Below, piece after piece: positions 3,002 through 44,117 of a DNA stretch of 64,000 nucleotides (position 1 is the stretch's first letter; the number at the start of each line of letters is the position of its first letter). Both the position numbers and the translations under genes were made by a program. The stretch is from a virus, in IMG/VR virus record IMGVR_UViG_2558860454_000004. One strand, given 5' to 3'. Under the pieces are notes generated by a model, which worked only from the letters and a program-made list of their open reading frames with translations, searched no databases and was not told where the DNA came from.

Positions 3002-4068
3002 TATCCTACCTCACGCTGTAAAGACGACGCCGAACGGAGATCCGCTGCGCCACGCGCTTCGCACATCATGTCCATGTACCACGCCTGGCCCCTTGTATCA
3101 CCAGTATACATAATGCCTTTCACAACATAAACGCCATCCGTTGCGATGCTGGCAGGCTGCGCCGTGGTGCCGCTGAGTGTGATATTGCCGTCAGTGTTCT
3201 GGTCGGTGATGCGGCCACCAGCCATAGCAATATCGTTGTTCGACAATGCAGTACGGTACACCGAAGCCTGATCCAGTTGAATTAGCCCGTTAACCCGGAT
3301 GTTCAGGTTAATCAGCGCGCGGACGTTAACGCCATTACCGATGGTCTGCTGAGGCATGCCGATCAGCCCGGTGGCGCTGTTGAGCACAATCGCGTCGTGC
3401 ATGTATTCACCTTCGGGCAGCATATTAAGCTGACCATCCACGAACTGCCAGGTGGCGCCGCACTGAGCAGCAACGTTATCCATAAGATGCCGTGTCATGC
3501 CAAACAACACACGTCCCCGCGGGAAAACAGTCGGGGGGAATACCGGAGTGCGACCAACGGTCGCGCCTTTGGCTTCGAAGTCCTTCATCAACAGCCTGAA
3601 CATATCTTCTGTCGTGTAACCCGCTGCCAGCGTCTGATTGGTAATGCTGGTGGCAAATGCCAGATCCGTATCGGCGGCCTGAATCAGGACGTAGGAGTCA
3701 ATGGGACTGTCTTTTCCTGTGACCGAGTAGCGAATTTCCCCACTAAAAATCAGTCCGTAGTTGCGCCCGTCGCTCTGGCCCACCGTGTCGGCGTCGACTT
3801 CCCGCGCAATGCCGACATCGCTGGCTGCCACCTCCGGCGCGATACCGTCGTAACCGGCAATCAGCCGCACTTTCGAAAACTCCTGGCCGGTGATGCGGTT
3901 CACCGTATCAGCTGACAGGTTGTAGATTTTGAACGTTCCCACCCGGGACGCGCTGCTGATGTTGAACCAGTCGATCGTAAAGGTCACTTTAAAATCGCTG
4001 AGTTGAATACCCTGTCCGTTTTCGCCCACGAGCTGCAGCTCGAAATGCCTCATCCAGTTCTGTGACAT
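3001..4068 (-). CDS. Baseplate hub protein
   Basis: 355 aa, KVRLIAGY / FSGEI / ATGLIGMP motifs, position downstream of tape measure. Confidence 0.75.
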   Translation of the reverse strand: MSQNWMRHFELQLVGENGQGIQLSDFKVTFTIDWFNISSASRVGTFKIYNLSADTVNRITGQEFSKVRLIAGYDGIAPEVAASDVGIAREVDADTVGQSDGRNYGLIFSGEIRYSVTGKDSPIDSYVLIQAADTDLAFATSITNQTLAAGYTTEDMFRLLMKDFEAKGATVGRTPVFPPTVFPRGRVLFGMTRHLMDNVAAQCGATWQFVDGQLNMLPEGEYMHDAIVLNSATGLIGMPQQTIGNGVNVRALINLNIRVNGLIQLDQASVYRTALSNNDIAMAGGRITDQNTDGNITLSGTTAQPASIATDGVYVVKGIMYTGDTRGQAWYMDMMCEARGAADLRSASSLQREVG

Positions 4069-19552: not shown

Positions 19553-19833
19553 TATTGCCTCAGATGATCAACCAAGCGTGCCACATTACCGCGAGCCCAC
19601 AGCAAAGCGGCGCAGATAAGGATATTCACCATCACCACCAGCCAGTGGGATGATTCATATAAACCAAAAACAAACCGGAAAGGGACGCTGGCATACACCA
19701 GCACCATGACATAGGCCAGTAACGAAATCAGGGGGCGGTGTGTCGCATCACCGCGTCGGTAAAACATCAAAACGATGACTATCACCCCACAAATTACGGC
19801 ATTCAGAACTGCAGAAGGGTCATTTGCTACCAT
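19552..19833 (-). CDS. Holin (3-TM)
   Basis: 93 aa, three hydrophobic segments, ARGNVA C-terminus, adjacent to endolysin. Confidence 0.75.
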   Translation of the reverse strand: MVANDPSAVLNAVICGVIVIVLMFYRRGDATHRPLISLLAYVMVLVYASVPFRFVFGLYESSHWLVVMVNILICAALLWARGNVARLVDHLRQ

Positions 19834-20209
19834 CTGATCCCCCTCCCCTGATACGGGAGAGAATACTGAACAGAGTGTTCAGATCCTGACTGTTGAGAAA
19901 AGTGAGAAACTTTATACACATTGCAGAAATAATTACTGCGCCAAGTGCATCCAGTGGTTTTTCATAATGCGTTATTGCCGCAAGCTTAGTACCTATCAGC
20001 CCGGCGCCAAGCACTCCCACAATAAATGATGTAATAAAATAAGCGACCAGCCTGATCCGTCCGATGTTGGTTGCCGTGGCGACATAAAACACCGCGCCGG
20101 CAAAAGCACCGAATACCACACCATAATCGGTTCCGGTCGCCAGACCGAATACACTGGCCCCCATTAATCCACCAGCCAACACTGTCGCACTGGATACAGG
20201 TTCGGACAT
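19820..20209 (-). CDS. Putative holin/antiholin
   Basis: 129 aa multi-TM, GAFAGAVFYV motif, first gene of lysis cassette. Confidence 0.75.
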   Translation of the reverse strand: MSEPVSSATVLAGGLMGASVFGLATGTDYGVVFGAFAGAVFYVATATNIGRIRLVAYFITSFIVGVLGAGLIGTKLAAITHYEKPLDALGAVIISAMCIKFLTFLNSQDLNTLFSILSRIRGGGSDGSK

Positions 20210-20298
20210 TCATCCCCCTCTGGTTATGTGGGTCCTCTCAGTTATGAGGGGAAATAAAAAAGGCTGCCTGATGGCAGCCCTGATAAGGTTTAAGTCAT

Positions 20299-20487
20299 TT
20301 AAACTGGCGATTGTAACGGTCCGGAAAGTACTTCTGCTTCGCCGTTATGGCAGATATCATCGCCCCTTGTCAGATGCCAGACACCGACAATAAGCTGTCC
20401 TGATTCCAGATCGTCAACTGTGTCATTCGTATAGTATGCCACCTGAACAACACCGTTATGCTGAATCCAGTAATACCCTTCTTTCAT
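20299..20487 (-). CDS. Hypothetical protein in late leader
   Basis: 62 aa with strong GGAGGTG SD. Confidence 0.6.
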   Translation of the reverse strand: MKEGYYWIQHNGVVQVAYYTNDTVDDLESGQLIVGVWHLTRGDDICHNGEAEVLSGPLQSPV

Positions 20488-20821
20488 TCACACCTCCGCA
20501 AGACTAAGCAAATAGTATAGGGCGAAGCAGAAAATGCCGCGGTGCAAGAAGCCACAACTCAAATCCTGTTGTACAGGCTGCTCTTTCCAGTCATAGCCTC
20601 ACCTCCGATTGTTCGGATGGTGCAGAGTGGGTTAAAGAGATCAGGCTCTCGGGCAGCGTTTGCTACGTAGGTAATATCGAGGGTGGTTCCCGGAGCCTGA
20701 TATAGCGGACAGGCTCTACGCAAGCGCCTGTCGGATTGGGTTATGAGCCGTCCGCCAGTGAGCCCTGAATACGGAAAAGGCCCACCGAAGCGAGCCCCAT
20801 AATTTGTTAAAAAACAGCCCT

Positions 20822-20849
20822 ATTTAACATAATGTACGTTATCGGCACC
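20822..20849 (-). other. XerCD dif-like recombination site
   Basis: Minus strand GGTGCCGATAA-CGTACA-TTATGTTAAAT vs enterobacterial dif GGTGCGCATAA-TGTATA-TTATGTTAAAT (24/28; XerD arm 11/11). Confidence 0.85.
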
Positions 20850-21023
20850 ACGCGATCCGCACTCGCCACAGGTTTGCGGTGAAAGGCGTATTTACGCGGG
20901 TTAAGTGGTTCGAAACGGACAAAAGCGAGTGAATAAATCGTGCATAAAACAGGGTGCAAAATGCATAGCGTTTTTTCGCAGCGTAAGCCCTGTTTTATTA
21001 ACTTTTCCCCTGAACGGGGCAAG

Positions 21024-21046
21024 AAAAAAGCCCCCACACGGGAGCC
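21024..21046 (-). terminator. tR'-like terminator after Q
   Basis: GGCTCCCGTGTGGGGGC followed by TTTTTT on minus strand. Confidence 0.7.
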
Positions 21047-21071
21047 TCTTCGTTGAGGTCAGAAATTCAAC

Positions 21072-21506
21072 TCATACCAGCGTAGCGCACTTTTTGCGGC
21101 CCGCACTAATACTTTTTTCACTTCGTTGTTTTTCAACCTCAGGATCCATTTGCAAACGCACATTCAACATGCAAAGACACCCTTCGATAAACCCTTCTGC
21201 GGTAGACATGAGGCGGCGGACCTCACGTTCGGAAATTTTAGCCCTTCGCCCTATCTCGCGTTTGGTCAACCCGTGGACGTAGTACAGCATGATGACGTCC
21301 AGCTCCTCGGGCTTGCGCACCTGCTGCAGACGGCAGACACAGCTATCAATAACCAGCCCGTCGTCATCGCAGCAACTCAGTCTGTTGGACGAACTGCTGA
21401 CCACAAGTCCTTTAAACCCGGCAGCGACCGGAGCCCAGCTTACTGCGGTGTTGCTATCGGCAGCCCAGCCGCCCCAGCGCTCTAAAACCTGTTGAATATT
21501 ACGCAT
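21072..21506 (-). CDS. Q: Late antiterminator Q
   Basis: VLERWGGW, CCDDDGLVID, AEGFIEG motifs; upstream of lysis genes. Confidence 0.85.
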   Translation of the reverse strand: MRNIQQVLERWGGWAADSNTAVSWAPVAAGFKGLVVSSSSNRLSCCDDDGLVIDSCVCRLQQVRKPEELDVIMLYYVHGLTKREIGRRAKISEREVRRLMSTAEGFIEGCLCMLNVRLQMDPEVEKQRSEKSISAGRKKCATLV

Positions 21507-21931: not shown

Positions 21932-22196
21932 AGGTGACGGATAGGTGACGCGTAAATACCTATCCGTCACCTGCTGTAAAGCGCTCCACATAAGGCTTGA
22001 GAGTATTTCAGGTGACAGGTGACGGCTGATTTGAGTTCTATATACATAAAAGATCGTATAATACCTAAAATATAAGTTCTCGCGTATATAGTTTTAAATT
22101 CTGCCGTCACCTGTCACCTTTTAGCATTTCAACTCTGATTTAATTGACTTTTTTAAGGTGACGCTTAACCGTTTTGCCGTCACCTAGCCGTCACCT
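21932..22196. repeat. Putative replication origin: ten AGGTGAC iterons in dyad symmetry around an AT-rich core
   Basis: Forward copies at 21932, 21943, 22010, 22017, 22156; reverse copies at 21966, 22106, 22113, 22179, 22190; directly 3' of primase. Confidence 0.8.
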
Positions 22197-37656: not shown

Positions 37657-38829
37657 TTAAATCAACCTCAGTTGATCAATAAAATCCGCATACCATTGCA
37701 TCATTCCCCGACGCCCTTCCATATAGAGGGCATGGTTATAAACCCCGCGAATATTATTCTTGTCCACATGAGCGATTTGGAGTTCAACCCAGTCAGAGTT
37801 GAATCCTCTATCGTTCAGTATGGTGCTAAACGTATGCCGGAAGCCATGCCCTACAACCCTTCCCTTATACCCCAGCGTGTGGATCATCCTGTTTATTGTG
37901 TTCTCGCTCATGACCTTTGACGGGTCATTCCTGCCGGGGAACATATTCACGAATCGACCTGTAAGACCGTGCAACTCTTTCAGCAAGACAACAAGCTGAT
38001 CGGAGAGCGGTACCAGGTGCGGGCGATCCATCTTCATAAATTCGGCGGGTATCTCCCATAGCCGATTATCGAAATCTACCCATTCCCATTTTGAGTGCCG
38101 CAGTTCGTAGGTACGCAGCCCCGCCAGCATCATGATCTGCAAACCCAGCCGGGGAAGCGGACTCCCCTTGTAACCCTCAAGCGCCGCCAGAAAATCGGGT
38201 AGCTCTTCCGCTGTCAGGAACTGGAAGGATTCACCTTTATGGCCGGTCATTGCGCTATTCAGTTCGCTGACGGGGTTGTACTTCGCGCGCCCGGTCGCAA
38301 CAGCATAACTGAATACCTCGCCGCACCATCGGCGCGTTTTAGCTGCTTTCTCAGTTGCGCCGCGATTCTCAATTTTACGCAGCGCCGTCAGCATCTGGAC
38401 GGGCTCAATCTCAGCAACCGGTAACTTACCAACCGCCGGAAAAATATCCTTATTGAATGCTTCGAGAATGTCAGAGGCATAGCCAGGCGACCAGCGCGGC
38501 TTCTTAAACTCATGCCACTCGATGGCAATATCTTTAAAGGTAATAGAGTTTGCTGCGGCAGCTGCAACGTGGCTTTTGACCTTTACCGGATCCACACCAG
38601 CTGCAACATTTCGCCGGGCTTCATCTCGCTTTTCGCGAGCCGCGGCCAGTGAAACAGCCGGGTATACACCGAGCGCCAGCATCTTTTCTCTACCGGCGAA
38701 GGTATAGCGATATCGCCAGTATTTCGCTCCACTGGTTTTCACCAGCAGAATAAGCCCGTTACCGTCTGGCAGTTTGTAGTCTTTCTCGCCTGGCTTTGCC
38801 GTCTCGACCTGTCGCGCATTTAGTTTCAT
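37657..38829 (-). CDS. int: P4-family tyrosine integrase
   Basis: Arm-binding N-terminus (DGNGL.L.V...G.KYWRYRY), LRTYEL, HGFRHT, VYNHA; start set at MKLNARQV. Confidence 0.93.
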   Translation of the reverse strand: MKLNARQVETAKPGEKDYKLPDGNGLILLVKTSGAKYWRYRYTFAGREKMLALGVYPAVSLAAAREKRDEARRNVAAGVDPVKVKSHVAAAAANSITFKDIAIEWHEFKKPRWSPGYASDILEAFNKDIFPAVGKLPVAEIEPVQMLTALRKIENRGATEKAAKTRRWCGEVFSYAVATGRAKYNPVSELNSAMTGHKGESFQFLTAEELPDFLAALEGYKGSPLPRLGLQIMMLAGLRTYELRHSKWEWVDFDNRLWEIPAEFMKMDRPHLVPLSDQLVVLLKELHGLTGRFVNMFPGRNDPSKVMSENTINRMIHTLGYKGRVVGHGFRHTFSTILNDRGFNSDWVELQIAHVDKNNIRGVYNHALYMEGRRGMMQWYADFIDQLRLI

Positions 38830-38832
38830 AGG

Positions 38833-38869
38833 TACCCGCCTCAAACTCAGATACCCGTCTATGTACCCG
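38833..38869. repeat. Putative arm-type sites of left-prophage integrase
   Basis: Three direct TACCCG repeats (38833, 38852, 38864) upstream of int. Confidence 0.55.
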
Positions 38870-38982
38870 TTTTAAATTTGGATTGCAACGGTAAAAAGTG
38901 GATAACACTGGACAAACAGAACGGTCAACCACAAGAAAAACAAGAAAAAATGGAAAGTTGGGGATGATACTGGAGGAAAAAA

Positions 38983-39028
38983 TGGTGCCGATAATAGGAG
39001 TCGAACCTACGACCTTCGCATTACGAAT
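38983..39028 (-). repeat. thrW: 46-bp att core = 3' half of tRNA-Thr thrW (not an intact tRNA); junction of the two prophages
   Basis: Minus strand ATTCGTAATGCGAAGGTCGTAGGTTCGACTCCTATTATCGGCACCA; 5' half of the tRNA replaced by phage sequence. Confidence 0.95.
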
Positions 39029-39153
39029 TATAAGAACTACCTTTTAAGTCAACAACATACCGCGTCATACCTGCGCTCACACGTCCCATCTTCGAAAAAC
39101 ATGCAAAGCCTTGCAAGCCGATGCAAAGCTTTGTGTGTCCCGTTTTTGTCCCA
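39029..39153. promoter_or_regulatory. P22-type attP arm
   Basis: GTCCC repeats (minus strand TGGGACAAAAACGGGACAC), three TGCAA(A)GC repeats, IHF-like AAGTCAACAACATA. Confidence 0.6.
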
Positions 39154-39181
39154 AACCACTTAGCAATCAGCAATAAAAATT

Positions 39182-42113: not shown

Positions 42114-44117
42114 CTAAAGTGTTGCTAAGGTTAATCTAACTAATTCTCCATTGGGTTTTTTCACTAAAGCCTTTAAAGAAGTAGAATTATTTTCCCAATA
42201 TGGCAAAAAACATGAGGAATCCTTTATAAAATCATCTGACGCGATGTCAGGGACAAATGGTATCTCTGCCCCCCTGCAATCTTTGTGGTTAACTTTTAAT
42301 GATACAGCGTCAGGTGTGTTACCTGAAATAGCAGTAAGTTGAGTCCACGCTGAGCCAGAACCGGGCCCCCCGTTAATGTGGGAGTACAATGCTCCGCTAT
42401 CTAAGGTCTTTGATAACTTATGAATCCGCAGTTTAATCGCTGCGCTATCATAGCCGAAACTATTAGCGCGGATATTACCTAACCCTTCTTCTGCCAAATT
42501 AGCAACATTAATTCTAGAGGGGTCTACCATCCCGGTGATACCGCTTACGGTAGAGTTAGGGGCGTCTATGGTTAGACCCTGCCCATCGGTTGAGCGGATC
42601 CCAATTAAACGTAAACCGTTCACACGGCAAGCCCCAGATATATAAATCTGATTAGCCTGGAAATCCTTAGTATTGGTATCAATTATGGCTATATTGGTAA
42701 ATACTGATTCATGGGTGAGTAGGTACGCGCCAGAGCCAGCGCAATCTTCTACGGTAATATTAGACACATACATGCCCTTACCATCCATACCAAAACCTAC
42801 ACCTAACGCCCCGCGAACCAGAAGATTATCAATCAGGTGATTTAGGGGTAACTGATGCAGTGGGTATTGGGTTATAGGGTAGTCCCCAGGCCTGTCCAAC
42901 TCCGGATTCATGTCAGTGTCAGCACCTAAATCGAATCCGTCCCATACGGGGTAAATAACGACCGAGTCGCGGAATTGCAGATTATAGTTGCGAGAGGTTG
43001 TCGAGCCCACAGTACCTTGCCAAGTTTTAACACCACTCTCCCCAGCGCGATATGAAGTAAACCCAATAACTCCACCATCACGTTCAAAGCCACCATTATT
43101 ACGTAAAAATTGGGCGCTACTTACTGATCCATAGCTGGTTCGTCCGCCAATGACATAGTTACCCTTACCCCAATCGCCGCTAAGGTTTTCGAAGGTTATA
43201 ATGCCATCTTTACCTCCGCTTGGATTATTGGCGTCTACCATCTTGCAGAAGTGACACCCTCTAAACAAAAAACCAGCCATTAGACCGCTAGCCCGATGAA
43301 CTTCGACCCCTATACATTCTCTAATTTCTAACGTAGACGTTATGTTTTGCCCTTTTGCATTAGGTGGGAGTAACGTTTCTATTCCTGGGAATTTAACGTA
43401 ATCGCTTACGGTTGGCTGATACCCATCGGTTTTCGATTGTTTTAAAGTGGCAACGACCGCTGCGGCATCCGTTAGCCACTGATTGTCATCCGTCCAAGGC
43501 TTGATAACCCATGGTGTTGTAGTGCTTTCCATAAAAACCCCGGCAATGCGGGAACCTTTGCCTAATTTCGTAAAAATAAGATTTCCATCTCCTATAAACT
43601 TAGCTTTACATTCTATAGTCAGAACCTTACCACCAAAATCAACTTTCTCTCCATTATAAAAATGATAATCAACATCGATAAGAAGGCCATCAACCGCAGC
43701 AGATGCTGCATCCTGCAATGTTGGATAATCTGATAATTTTACTGAATACTTAAATTTTTTATCAGCTTCTATTGAATATTGATCTGGATCGTACTTCAAT
43801 ACGTTAGCAATATAGTCAACCTGAGAACCATTGGCATCATAGATAGCCATGCTATGACCCTGAACGGTGACAATTTTCACCAGTTGGCCGTTGTATACGA
43901 TTTTACCGGCTGCGTTGATAATTAGCGGCTGAGCAATCTGGACGTGAGAGCCATCCTCATTTTCAATGTATACGGGTATCTGATTGGCAGGATTAACAGG
44001 ATCGGTATCAATCTGACCAATGTAAATTTTCCCATTCGCAACAGCTTTAAACGAACGGGATTCAGTGAAGACGGGACGAGGGTTAGAAACAACTACGTTT
44101 GCAGTGATATCTGTCAT
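42114..44117 (-). CDS. Tailspike endorhamnosidase (P22 gp9)
   Basis: 667 aa, [15 protein letters not shown] head-binding domain, P22-like beta-helix through VRLTLATL. Confidence 0.97.

What the first reader, a model, noticed from the sequence alone, without database searches (positions are those of the whole stretch)
20822..20998. XerCD dif-like site with a possible accessory region inside a tRNA-integrated prophage
Seen: GGTGCCGATAA-CGTACA-TTATGTTAAAT, 24/28 to chromosomal dif, with a perfect XerD arm and a 6-bp spacer. On the XerC side are an imperfect ARG-box-like element (TGAAT-N5-GTGCA at ~20930; canonical spacer is 4) and an 11-bp inverted repeat ATAAAACAGGG/CCCTGTTTTAT (20944-20998). 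Established: plasmid cer/psi sites place PepA/ArgR or ArcA accessory DNA on the XerC side, and IMEX elements integrate at dif. The phage already has its own integrase. Inference: the site probably resolves multimers of the replicating circle, supports an episomal state, or offers a second integration route using host XerCD. I cannot say from sequence alone whether this has been described for this phage group.
Basis: partly seen in the sequence, partly recalled or inferred. Interest (0 to 1): 0.72.

Follow-up and report, generated by a model that had tools for sequence, protein, structure and literature searches.

The report
Plasmid-type Xer site in prophage
Between this prophage's late-gene regulator Q and its lysis genes lies a real, strongly conserved docking site for the host recombinases XerC/XerD, built like the pSC101 plasmid site psi, which is unexpected in a tailed phage that has its own integrase and is not described in the papers I could search.

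Summary
A 28-bp dif-like core lies at 20822-20849, with XerD arm 11/11, a 6-bp spacer and 24/28 matches to dif. It is the only such site in the window: 36.8 bits against 3.5 for the next best and 12.3 for the best shuffle.

The ~155 bp on the XerC side align without gaps with the accessory sequence of pSC101 psi (42% identity in register against 25% out of register, z 4.7). They carry a conserved box exactly where psi has its ArcA box, 80 nt after the XerC arm. That box is neither a canonical ARG box nor an ArcA box.

I scanned 185,579 species genomes with the box alone. This found 39 loci, nearly all labelled Enterobacterales, and every one has a Xer core 70 or 80 nt away. The 24 other stretches with readable upstream DNA, all from other taxa, had none.

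The site sits in late operons of integrating tailed phages, almost always in one orientation. Its spacers never match dif, so integration at dif is unlikely.

Most likely it lets host XerCD recombine two sister copies on one phage DNA molecule, turning dimers into monomers. Why an integrating phage needs this is open.

This scan has found the same module before on other DNA. I found no paper describing it in tailed phages.

The parts
20797..20821 (-). Flank on the XerD side, moderately conserved (ATAATTT..AAAAA..CCCT). In many relatives it holds the ribosome-binding region of the next late gene.
   Evidence: 0.67 bits per position against 0.15 further out; in at least 16 of 39 species the TerL start codon lies 23-38 nt from the XerD arm.
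20822..20832 (-). XerD-binding arm, identical to the XerD arm of dif.
   Evidence: Mean 1.89 of 2 bits per position in 39 species that were found without using the core.
20833..20838 (-). 6-bp central (crossover) region; TGTACG on the + strand.
   Evidence: It is always 6 bp, with 19 different hexamers in 39 species and none equal to dif.
20839..20849 (-). XerC-binding arm (GGTGCCGATAA on the - strand), 9/11 to dif.
   Evidence: Mean 1.32 bits per position, with the inner TTA best kept.
20850..21003 (-). Accessory sequence on the XerC side. It aligns without gaps with the psi accessory sequence and includes CACTCGCCACA (20860-20870), which psi shares.
   Evidence: 63/150 identical in register against a mean of 25% for 80 other registers, z 4.7.
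20930..20948 (.). Conserved box: TG(A/C)AT AAA N3 TGCAT AAA, two pentamers 11 bp apart. It starts 80 nt after the XerC arm, exactly where psi, pMET1 and p48 have their ArcA box. A third TGCATAG follows at 20961-20967.
   Evidence: a box-only scan finds a core at 70 or 80 nt in 37 of 39 loci, and at 78 or 81 nt in the other two.
20944..20998 (.). 11-bp inverted repeat with a 33-nt loop. The distal arm overlaps a motif (GAAAGCCCT.TTTT-like) also present at the far end of the psi, p48 and pMET1 accessory DNA.
   Evidence: It is not kept as an inverted repeat in other subfamilies. RNA folds are unremarkable, z -1.5 to -1.9.
21018..21051 (-). Strong intrinsic terminator just after the Q stop codon; it bounds the site on the upstream side.
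   Evidence: 12-bp GC-rich stem followed by a U run.
21072..21506 (-). Antiterminator Q gene, the upstream neighbour.
   Evidence: PF06530, E 1.4e-49.
19820..20209 (-). First holin gene, the downstream neighbour and start of the lysis cassette.
   Evidence: PF16931, E 9e-40.

Best explanation
This is a psi-type Xer recombination site. Host XerD and XerC bind the 28-bp core. Host accessory proteins (PepA, plus a factor that recognises the TG(A/C)ATAAA-N3-TGCATAAA box) assemble on the ~155 bp next to the XerC arm. As at psi and cer, this complex should allow strand exchange without FtsK, and only between two directly repeated copies on the same supercoiled molecule. The site would therefore convert dimeric or multimeric circles of phage DNA into monomers. 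Such circles could form during theta replication from the phage's own origin, after excision, or from tandem prophages. Shown here: the core, its selection, the psi-like layout and the phased box. Inferred: the binding proteins, the reaction itself and its benefit to an integrating phage. I put 0.85 on this being a selected Xer site and about 0.5 on dimer resolution as its role.
For: The core is unique in the window and far above chance. It follows the published rules for Xer sites (Fournes 2025, read): the XerD arm is better kept than the XerC arm, the inner bases are best kept, and the spacer is 6 bp and variable. The accessory DNA aligns in register with psi at z 4.7. The box starts at +80, as do the ArcA boxes of psi, pMET1 and p48. 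In the test that did not use the core, all 39 box-only loci have a core 70 nt (9 loci), 80 nt (28), 78 nt or 81 nt away. The 10-nt step between 70 and 80 is one helical turn, as expected for a phased nucleoprotein complex. The 24 other readable stretches, all from other taxa, have no core. The nearest published site is the xrs of pECO-b75, whose core differs at 1 of 28 positions. It is listed as an ArcA-type site in the Fournes 2025 supplement. On the phage-plasmid p48 and on the plasmid pMET1 the same module lies beside toxin-antitoxin and partition genes. In the four viral contigs I found with two sites, the two spacers always differ, which would prevent deletion of the essential genes between them.
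Against: The phage has its own integrase and is integrated. Its family is essentially never seen as a free plasmid. Phages that package from concatemers do not obviously gain from monomerisation. The box is neither a canonical ARG box nor an ArcA repeat, so the accessory protein is unknown. Dimer resolution does not predict the strong bias for late operons and for one orientation. There is no experimental or read-level evidence of recombination.
Confidence: 0.5

Rival explanations
1. Cyclisation site, by analogy with Cre-loxP of P1. In headful-packaging phages a site just downstream of pac is present at both ends of the terminally redundant DNA of an early headful. XerCD would join the two copies and circularise the injected genome without RecA.
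For: In species found independently of the core, the commonest location is immediately upstream of terL, between terS and terL, with the TerL start 23-38 nt from the XerD arm in at least 16 of 39. Other copies lie at the TerL|portal and head-morphogenesis|DUF2213 junctions. Some phages carry two sites in direct orientation 2.3-6.2 kb apart in this region, so several successive headfuls could each carry a duplicated site.
Against: In this window the site lies about 2.4 kb upstream of terS, behind the usual packaging direction, so it would not fall in the redundancy of early headfuls. From established knowledge, psi/cer-type recombination needs negatively supercoiled DNA, which an injected linear molecule lacks. 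Neither pac nor the size of the redundancy is known for these phages.
Confidence: 0.12
2. Module-exchange junction. The sites mark borders of late-gene blocks and let XerCD, or ordinary homologous recombination at the conserved ~60 bp, swap blocks between co-resident phages, much as pdif modules move in Acinetobacter plasmids.
For: The same module sits at four or more different gene junctions in otherwise unrelated contexts. Identical cores occur with different accessory DNA and flanks.
Against: Accessory-sequence control biases Xer recombination strongly towards reactions within one molecule. The diversity of spacers would block most exchanges between different phages. Breakpoints at a conserved sequence cannot be distinguished from homologous recombination.
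Confidence: 0.1
3. Inherited plasmid or phage-plasmid DNA that is tolerated in a gene-free leader and has no present function in this integrating phage.
For: Close relatives of the core are on phage-plasmids and plasmids. In pE76_003 the core has been separated from its accessory DNA by an ISKpn21 insertion without loss of the phage.
Against: The XerD arm is almost invariant, and the core-to-box distance is fixed, across 39 species whose flanks have diverged to near randomness. The site is present in 318 of 5,426 complete E. coli genomes.
Confidence: 0.1
4. Regulatory DNA or RNA element of the late leader that does not recombine. This could be a protein roadblock, or an antisense promoter over the XerD arm giving an Rcd-like RNA.
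For: A sigma-70-like TTGTTA-18-CATAAT pair overlaps the XerD arm on the + strand. The element is nearly always co-oriented with late transcription: 27 of 30 loci with both neighbours called. ColE1 cer contains the promoter Pcer (PMC4393325).
Against: The -35 element is not conserved in the family. There is no Rfam match. RNA folds are ordinary. The module also works in non-phage settings next to partition genes. An 11/11 match to the XerD arm of dif, a strict 6-bp spacer and unlike spacers in two-site phages all point to catalysis.
Confidence: 0.07
5. IMEX-type attachment site giving a second, XerCD-driven integration route into the host dif.
For: Similarity to dif. Filamentous phages and other IMEX elements do integrate this way (abstracts).
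Against: The phage has an integrase. The window holds only one Xer site, so nothing is flanked by two. The spacer matches dif at 4 of 6 positions here and at 0-4 of 6 in 39 species. Accessory DNA is a hallmark of resolution sites, not of IMEX attP.
Confidence: 0.03

Closest known systems
psi, the multimer-resolution site of pSC101 (XerC/XerD with PepA and ArcA; FtsK-independent)
   Same: A 28-bp core with a 6-bp spacer. Accessory DNA on the XerC side that aligns without gaps over 150 nt. A shared CACTCGCCACA motif about 10 nt from the XerC arm. A regulatory box starting exactly 80 nt from the arm, made of two pentamers 11 bp apart. A similar distal motif.
   Different: The box sequence is TG(A/C)AT..TGCAT rather than the TGTT(A/G)..TGTTA ArcA repeat. 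The site lies in the late operon of an integrating tailed phage, not on a small plasmid. Its activity is untested.
xrs of E. coli pECO-b75 and p48-type phage-plasmids, and of pMET1 (ArcA-type accessory sequence; pECO-b75 is listed in the Fournes et al. 2025 supplement, NAR 53:gkae1300)
   Same: The core is identical at 27 of 28 positions, and the XerD-side flank and first accessory bases are homologous. The replicon is also phage-related in the case of p48.
   Different: Those elements are plasmids without an integrase, and the site lies beside toxin-antitoxin and partition genes. They keep a psi-like ArcA box. The window's core, and the phage-type box, are absent from the supplement text held for that survey.
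cer of ColE1 and mwr of pJHCMW1 (XerC/XerD with PepA and ArgR)
   Same: The same logic of a core plus about 200 bp of accessory DNA on the XerC side. The half-sites TGAAT/TGCAT resemble ARG-box halves.
   Different: The cer spacer is 8 bp. The ARG box starts at +99 to +101 rather than +80, and has 4-nt rather than 5-nt spacing between halves.
Cre-loxP of phage P1
   Same: A phage-borne site-specific recombination site that keeps circular phage DNA monomeric (abstract of PMC2409434). From established knowledge, it also cyclises terminally redundant DNA.
   Different: P1 encodes its own recombinase and lives as a plasmid. Here the recombinase would be the host's, and the phage integrates.

Membership tests
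psi/cer-type plasmid Xer site (xrs with accessory sequence) | Core made of an XerC arm, a 6-8 bp central region and an XerD arm; XerD arm better conserved; inner bases best conserved | tested here: met
   The rules are as stated in Fournes 2025.
psi/cer-type plasmid Xer site (xrs with accessory sequence) | About 150-200 bp of accessory sequence abutting the XerC arm and related to a known accessory sequence | tested here: met
   In-register identity to psi is 42% against 25% out of register, z 4.7. The alignment is gap-free.
psi/cer-type plasmid Xer site (xrs with accessory sequence) | ArcA or ArgR binding site at the defined distance from the core | tested here: inconclusive
   A conserved box lies at psi's exact offset of +80 and is phased at 70 or 80 nt in 37 of 39 species. 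Its sequence fits neither the ArcA repeat nor a 4-nt-spaced ARG box. In one E. coli chromosome the only match is the prophage copy itself.
psi/cer-type plasmid Xer site (xrs with accessory sequence) | Recombination between direct repeats that depends on XerC, XerD and PepA but not on FtsK | not testable with these tools
   This needs the two-site plasmid assay in mutant hosts.
psi/cer-type plasmid Xer site (xrs with accessory sequence) | Carried by an autonomous circular replicon that needs dimer resolution | tested here: not met
   The element is an integrated prophage with its own integrase. This phage type occurs in only one plasmid record, trapped there by IS26. The 'plasmid' records of GZ7-like phages are excised integrase-bearing phages.
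Chromosomal dif | The host's single 28-bp site, without accessory DNA | tested here: not met
   There are 4 mismatches to dif. The site lies between Q and the holin inside a prophage and has accessory DNA.
IMEX attachment site (CTXphi, VGJphi, TLCphi, GGI) | No recombinase of its own; central region able to pair with dif; integrated copy flanked by two Xer sites | tested here: not met
   An integrase is present. The spacer matches dif at 4 of 6 positions here and 0-4 of 6 in the family, and the window holds a single site.
cer with Pcer/Rcd checkpoint RNA | Promoter inside the site that drives a small regulatory RNA | tested here: inconclusive
   A promoter-like pair lies at 20804-20833 on the + strand, but its -35 is not conserved. 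There is no Rfam match. The RNA runs laid down do not cover the site.

The most novel reading that the evidence does not exclude
Tailed temperate phages of Enterobacterales use host XerCD as a built-in DNA-topology switch in their packaging region. Sites placed just downstream of pac, sometimes two with unlike spacers, would circularise terminally redundant genomes or monomerise circles early in infection, and would be silenced when Q-dependent late transcription runs through them. A so far unidentified host factor reading the TG(A/C)ATAAA-N3-TGCATAAA box would define a third class of Xer accessory sequence, beside the ArgR and ArcA classes.
Probability: 0.15. Interest if true: 0.8.

Novelty: new variant of a known kind. 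Interest (0 to 1): 0.6.

Why it matters
Xer sites with accessory sequences are textbook features of small multicopy plasmids. The 2025 survey of enterobacterial replicons covered plasmids only and reported just two accessory types, ArgR and ArcA.

Here the same machinery appears in the late operons of many integrating tailed phages. I found it in at least 120 viral contigs, 39 species genomes and 318 of 5,426 complete E. coli genomes. It carries a third, phased box type.

If the site is active, host XerCD, PepA and an unknown factor become host factors for a large group of temperate phages. Annotation pipelines should then mark these "empty" leaders. It also opens a directly testable question: why should a phage that integrates and packages concatemers want monomeric circles?

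Tried and rejected
- **RNA evidence.** The two RNA runs that share words with the region, and one raw-read run, cover only the holin/isrI side, up to about 20609, in a relative. They do not cover the Xer site, so nothing can be said about its transcription.
- **Whole genome.** None is held for this window. I could therefore not check the host dif, xerC/xerD or the chromosomal position.
- **First box-only scan.** The 19-nt pattern was swamped by chance hits in AT-rich genomes, with 3 true sites in 122 matches. I replaced it with a longer pattern.
- **Gapped alignment of accessory DNA.** With harsh scoring it gave no signal for window against psi (z 0.9). The ungapped in-register test is the appropriate one.
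- **pE76_003 as an unresolved phage dimer.** Rejected. It is a SopAB plasmid with one trapped phage copy, and the "two places" are one site split by ISKpn21.
- **GZ7-like "plasmids" as true phage-plasmids.** Rejected. The record begins with an integrase and is an excised prophage.
- **ARG-box scoring.** The phage box scores 12/16, the same as the genuine cer box, but 14% of random 200-nt windows do as well, so the score does not discriminate.
- **Structured RNA in the accessory region.** Fold z-scores are only -1.5 to -1.9.
- **Literature.** Five full-text searches found no paper on psi/cer-type sites in tailed phages. The pMET1 paper does not mention its site.

Full report
**Anatomy**

The + strand at 20822-20849 reads XerD arm ATTTAACATAA, spacer TGTACG and XerC arm TTATCGGCACC. 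In the usual orientation this differs from E. coli dif at four positions, two in the XerC arm and two in the spacer. Consistent with that, a search allowing three mismatches finds nothing.

The site lies in a 560-bp gene-free stretch of a prophage.
- Upstream on the - strand are the antiterminator Q gene (21072-21506, PF06530) and a strong terminator (about 21018-21051).
- Downstream are an isrI-family small RNA (20295-20391, E 8e-23) with its terminator, and two holin genes.
- The prophage has a P4-type integrase at 37657-38844.
- It abuts a P22-like prophage, with the tailspike at 42114-44117.

No complete tRNA is in the window.

**Is it more than chance?**

I avoided judging the core by itself. 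The accessory region carries a conserved box: TG(A/C)ATAAA, three bases, TGCATAAA, then TG(A/C)ATAG 12-14 nt later. I scanned one genome from each of 185,579 species with that box alone, which returned 64 stretches.
- 39 stretches, nearly all labelled Enterobacterales, have a Xer core upstream. The distance is 80 nt in 28 cases, 70 nt in 9, and 78 or 81 nt in one each.
- 24 stretches from other taxa had readable upstream DNA, and none has anything better than 12 of 19 matches to the core consensus. One further Enterobacterales stretch was too short to read.

In the 39 loci, information per position is as follows:

| Region | Bits per position |
|---|---|
| XerD arm | 1.89 |
| XerC arm | 1.32 |
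| Spacer | 0.88 |
| Flanks | 0.15-0.84 |

A matrix built from these cores scores the window's site 36.8 bits. The next best place scores 3.5 and the best of 20 shuffles scores 12.3. The jump from 70 to 80 nt is one helical turn, which is what a phased protein-DNA complex predicts.

**What it resembles**

I oriented the sequences XerD arm, XerC arm, accessory DNA and aligned them. The window then aligns without gaps with several other sites:
- pSC101 psi;
- the sites of the conjugative plasmid pMET1, where it lies between a RelE/ParE toxin-antitoxin pair and parFG;
- the 48-kb phage-plasmid p48, where it lies beside a toxin-antitoxin pair.

Over the 150 nt after the XerC arm, the window and psi are 42% identical in register. 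The mean for 80 shifted registers is 25% (SD 3.7, maximum 34), giving z 4.7. A motif about 10 nt from the arm (CACTCGCCACA) is shared with psi.

The position of the box is the most telling detail:

| Site | Box type | Start after XerC arm |
|---|---|---|
| psi, pMET1, p48 | ArcA box | +80 |
| This window | phage box | +80 |
| cer | ARG box | +99 |
| mwr | ARG box | +101 |

Like an ArcA site, the phage box is two pentamers 11 bp apart. The pentamers, however, are TGAAT/TGCAT rather than TGTTA. Read as an ARG box, the half-sites are 5 nt apart in every relative instead of 4. I therefore class the site as psi-type in architecture with an unassigned box.

The core of pECO-b75, a p48-type element, differs from the window's core by one spacer base. 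It is listed as an ArcA-type site in the supplement of Fournes et al. 2025. Neither the window's core nor the phage-type box occurs in that supplement.

**Where else it occurs**

- The 221-bp module matches prophages and phage-plasmids in 318 of 5,426 complete E. coli genomes, at 221 chromosomal and 110 plasmid places.
- It also matches 23 deposited phage records, including E. coli vB_EcoM-606R2, Klebsiella GZ7-like phages, Yersinia phages and Pectobacterium ZF40.
- A core pattern found at least 120 viral contigs, with about 37 distinct cores.
- The module sits at different junctions: Q|holin, terS|terL, terL|portal and head-morphogenesis|DUF2213.
- In the 39 independent species the commonest place is directly upstream of terL.
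- Orientation is nearly constant. In 27 of 30 loci with both neighbours called, late transcription runs from the accessory DNA through the XerC arm to the XerD arm.
- Four viral contigs carry two sites in direct orientation around the portal gene, with or without TerL. In each contig the two spacers differ.

**How it most likely works**

The simplest reading is that the site does what psi does. XerCD, together with accessory proteins, would recombine two sister copies on one supercoiled molecule and reduce multimers to monomers.

Several observations fit a catalytic site used between identical sister copies rather than with other elements:
- a strict 6-bp spacer;
- 19 different spacers in 39 species;
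- no spacer equal to dif (0-4 of 6 matches);
- unlike spacers in two-site phages.

These observations also argue against integration at dif.

Dimer resolution leaves several things unexplained:
- The phage integrates with its own enzyme.
- Its family is almost never a free plasmid. The one plasmid record is a SopAB plasmid with the phage trapped between IS26 copies, where ISKpn21 has split the core from the accessory DNA.
- The "plasmid" records of GZ7-like phages are excised integrase-bearing prophages.
- The site prefers the packaging region and one orientation.

A Cre-loxP-like cyclisation of terminally redundant DNA would explain the terS|terL location and the paired sites. It does not fit this window's position upstream of terS, nor the known need of psi/cer for supercoiling.

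My confidences in the competing roles are set out under the best and rival explanations.

**Status**

Earlier follow-ups in this scan reached the same psi-type reading for Q-holin gaps and packaging regions in other genomes. I reached it independently, before looking them up. This report adds:
- the test that does not use the core;
- the 70/80-nt phasing;
- the exact +80 match with psi;
- the orientation count;

Five literature searches found no description of such sites in tailed phages. No RNA or read evidence bears on the site.

Noticed in passing
window 20295-20391 (-), terminator 20260-20281: A full-length match to the Salmonella island sRNA isrI (Rfam RF01392, 101 bits, E 8e-23) lies between the Xer site and the holin. 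The flanking DNA resembles Gifsy-1.
   Followed up: no
window 20733-20770: A ~40-nt stretch downstream of the core is conserved between this phage and E. coli phage vB_EcoM-606R2. It follows a 20-codon ORF that starts about 20 nt after the XerD arm, the same range in which TerL starts (23-38 nt) in many relatives. This may be a remnant of an earlier terL-adjacent location.
   Followed up: no
L005 / L133 (Enterobacter pE76_003), core at L005 693-720, accessory DNA from L005 3001: In this plasmid-trapped copy of the same phage type, an ISKpn21 and a 210-aa ORF separate the Xer core from its accessory sequence. This is a natural disruption of the site.
   Followed up: partly
L058, L097, L099, L120 (viral contigs): Each contig has two different Xer sites in direct orientation, 2.3-6.2 kb apart, bracketing the portal gene with or without TerL. 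One site has the TGCAT-type box. The other has an ArcA-like repeat in inverted orientation (AACATTTT.ATAACA).
   Followed up: partly
L004 (pMET1) 3013-3200: The published plasmid pMET1 carries an unannotated psi-like Xer site, with a near-consensus ArcA repeat, between its toxin-antitoxin genes and parFG. The 2008 paper on pMET1 does not mention it.
   Followed up: partly
window 21932-22196 and 38829-39160: First-reader notes on this window report an iteron origin next to the primase gene and a partial thrW att copy. I did not verify either. A theta-type origin would fit a need for dimer resolution.
   Followed up: no
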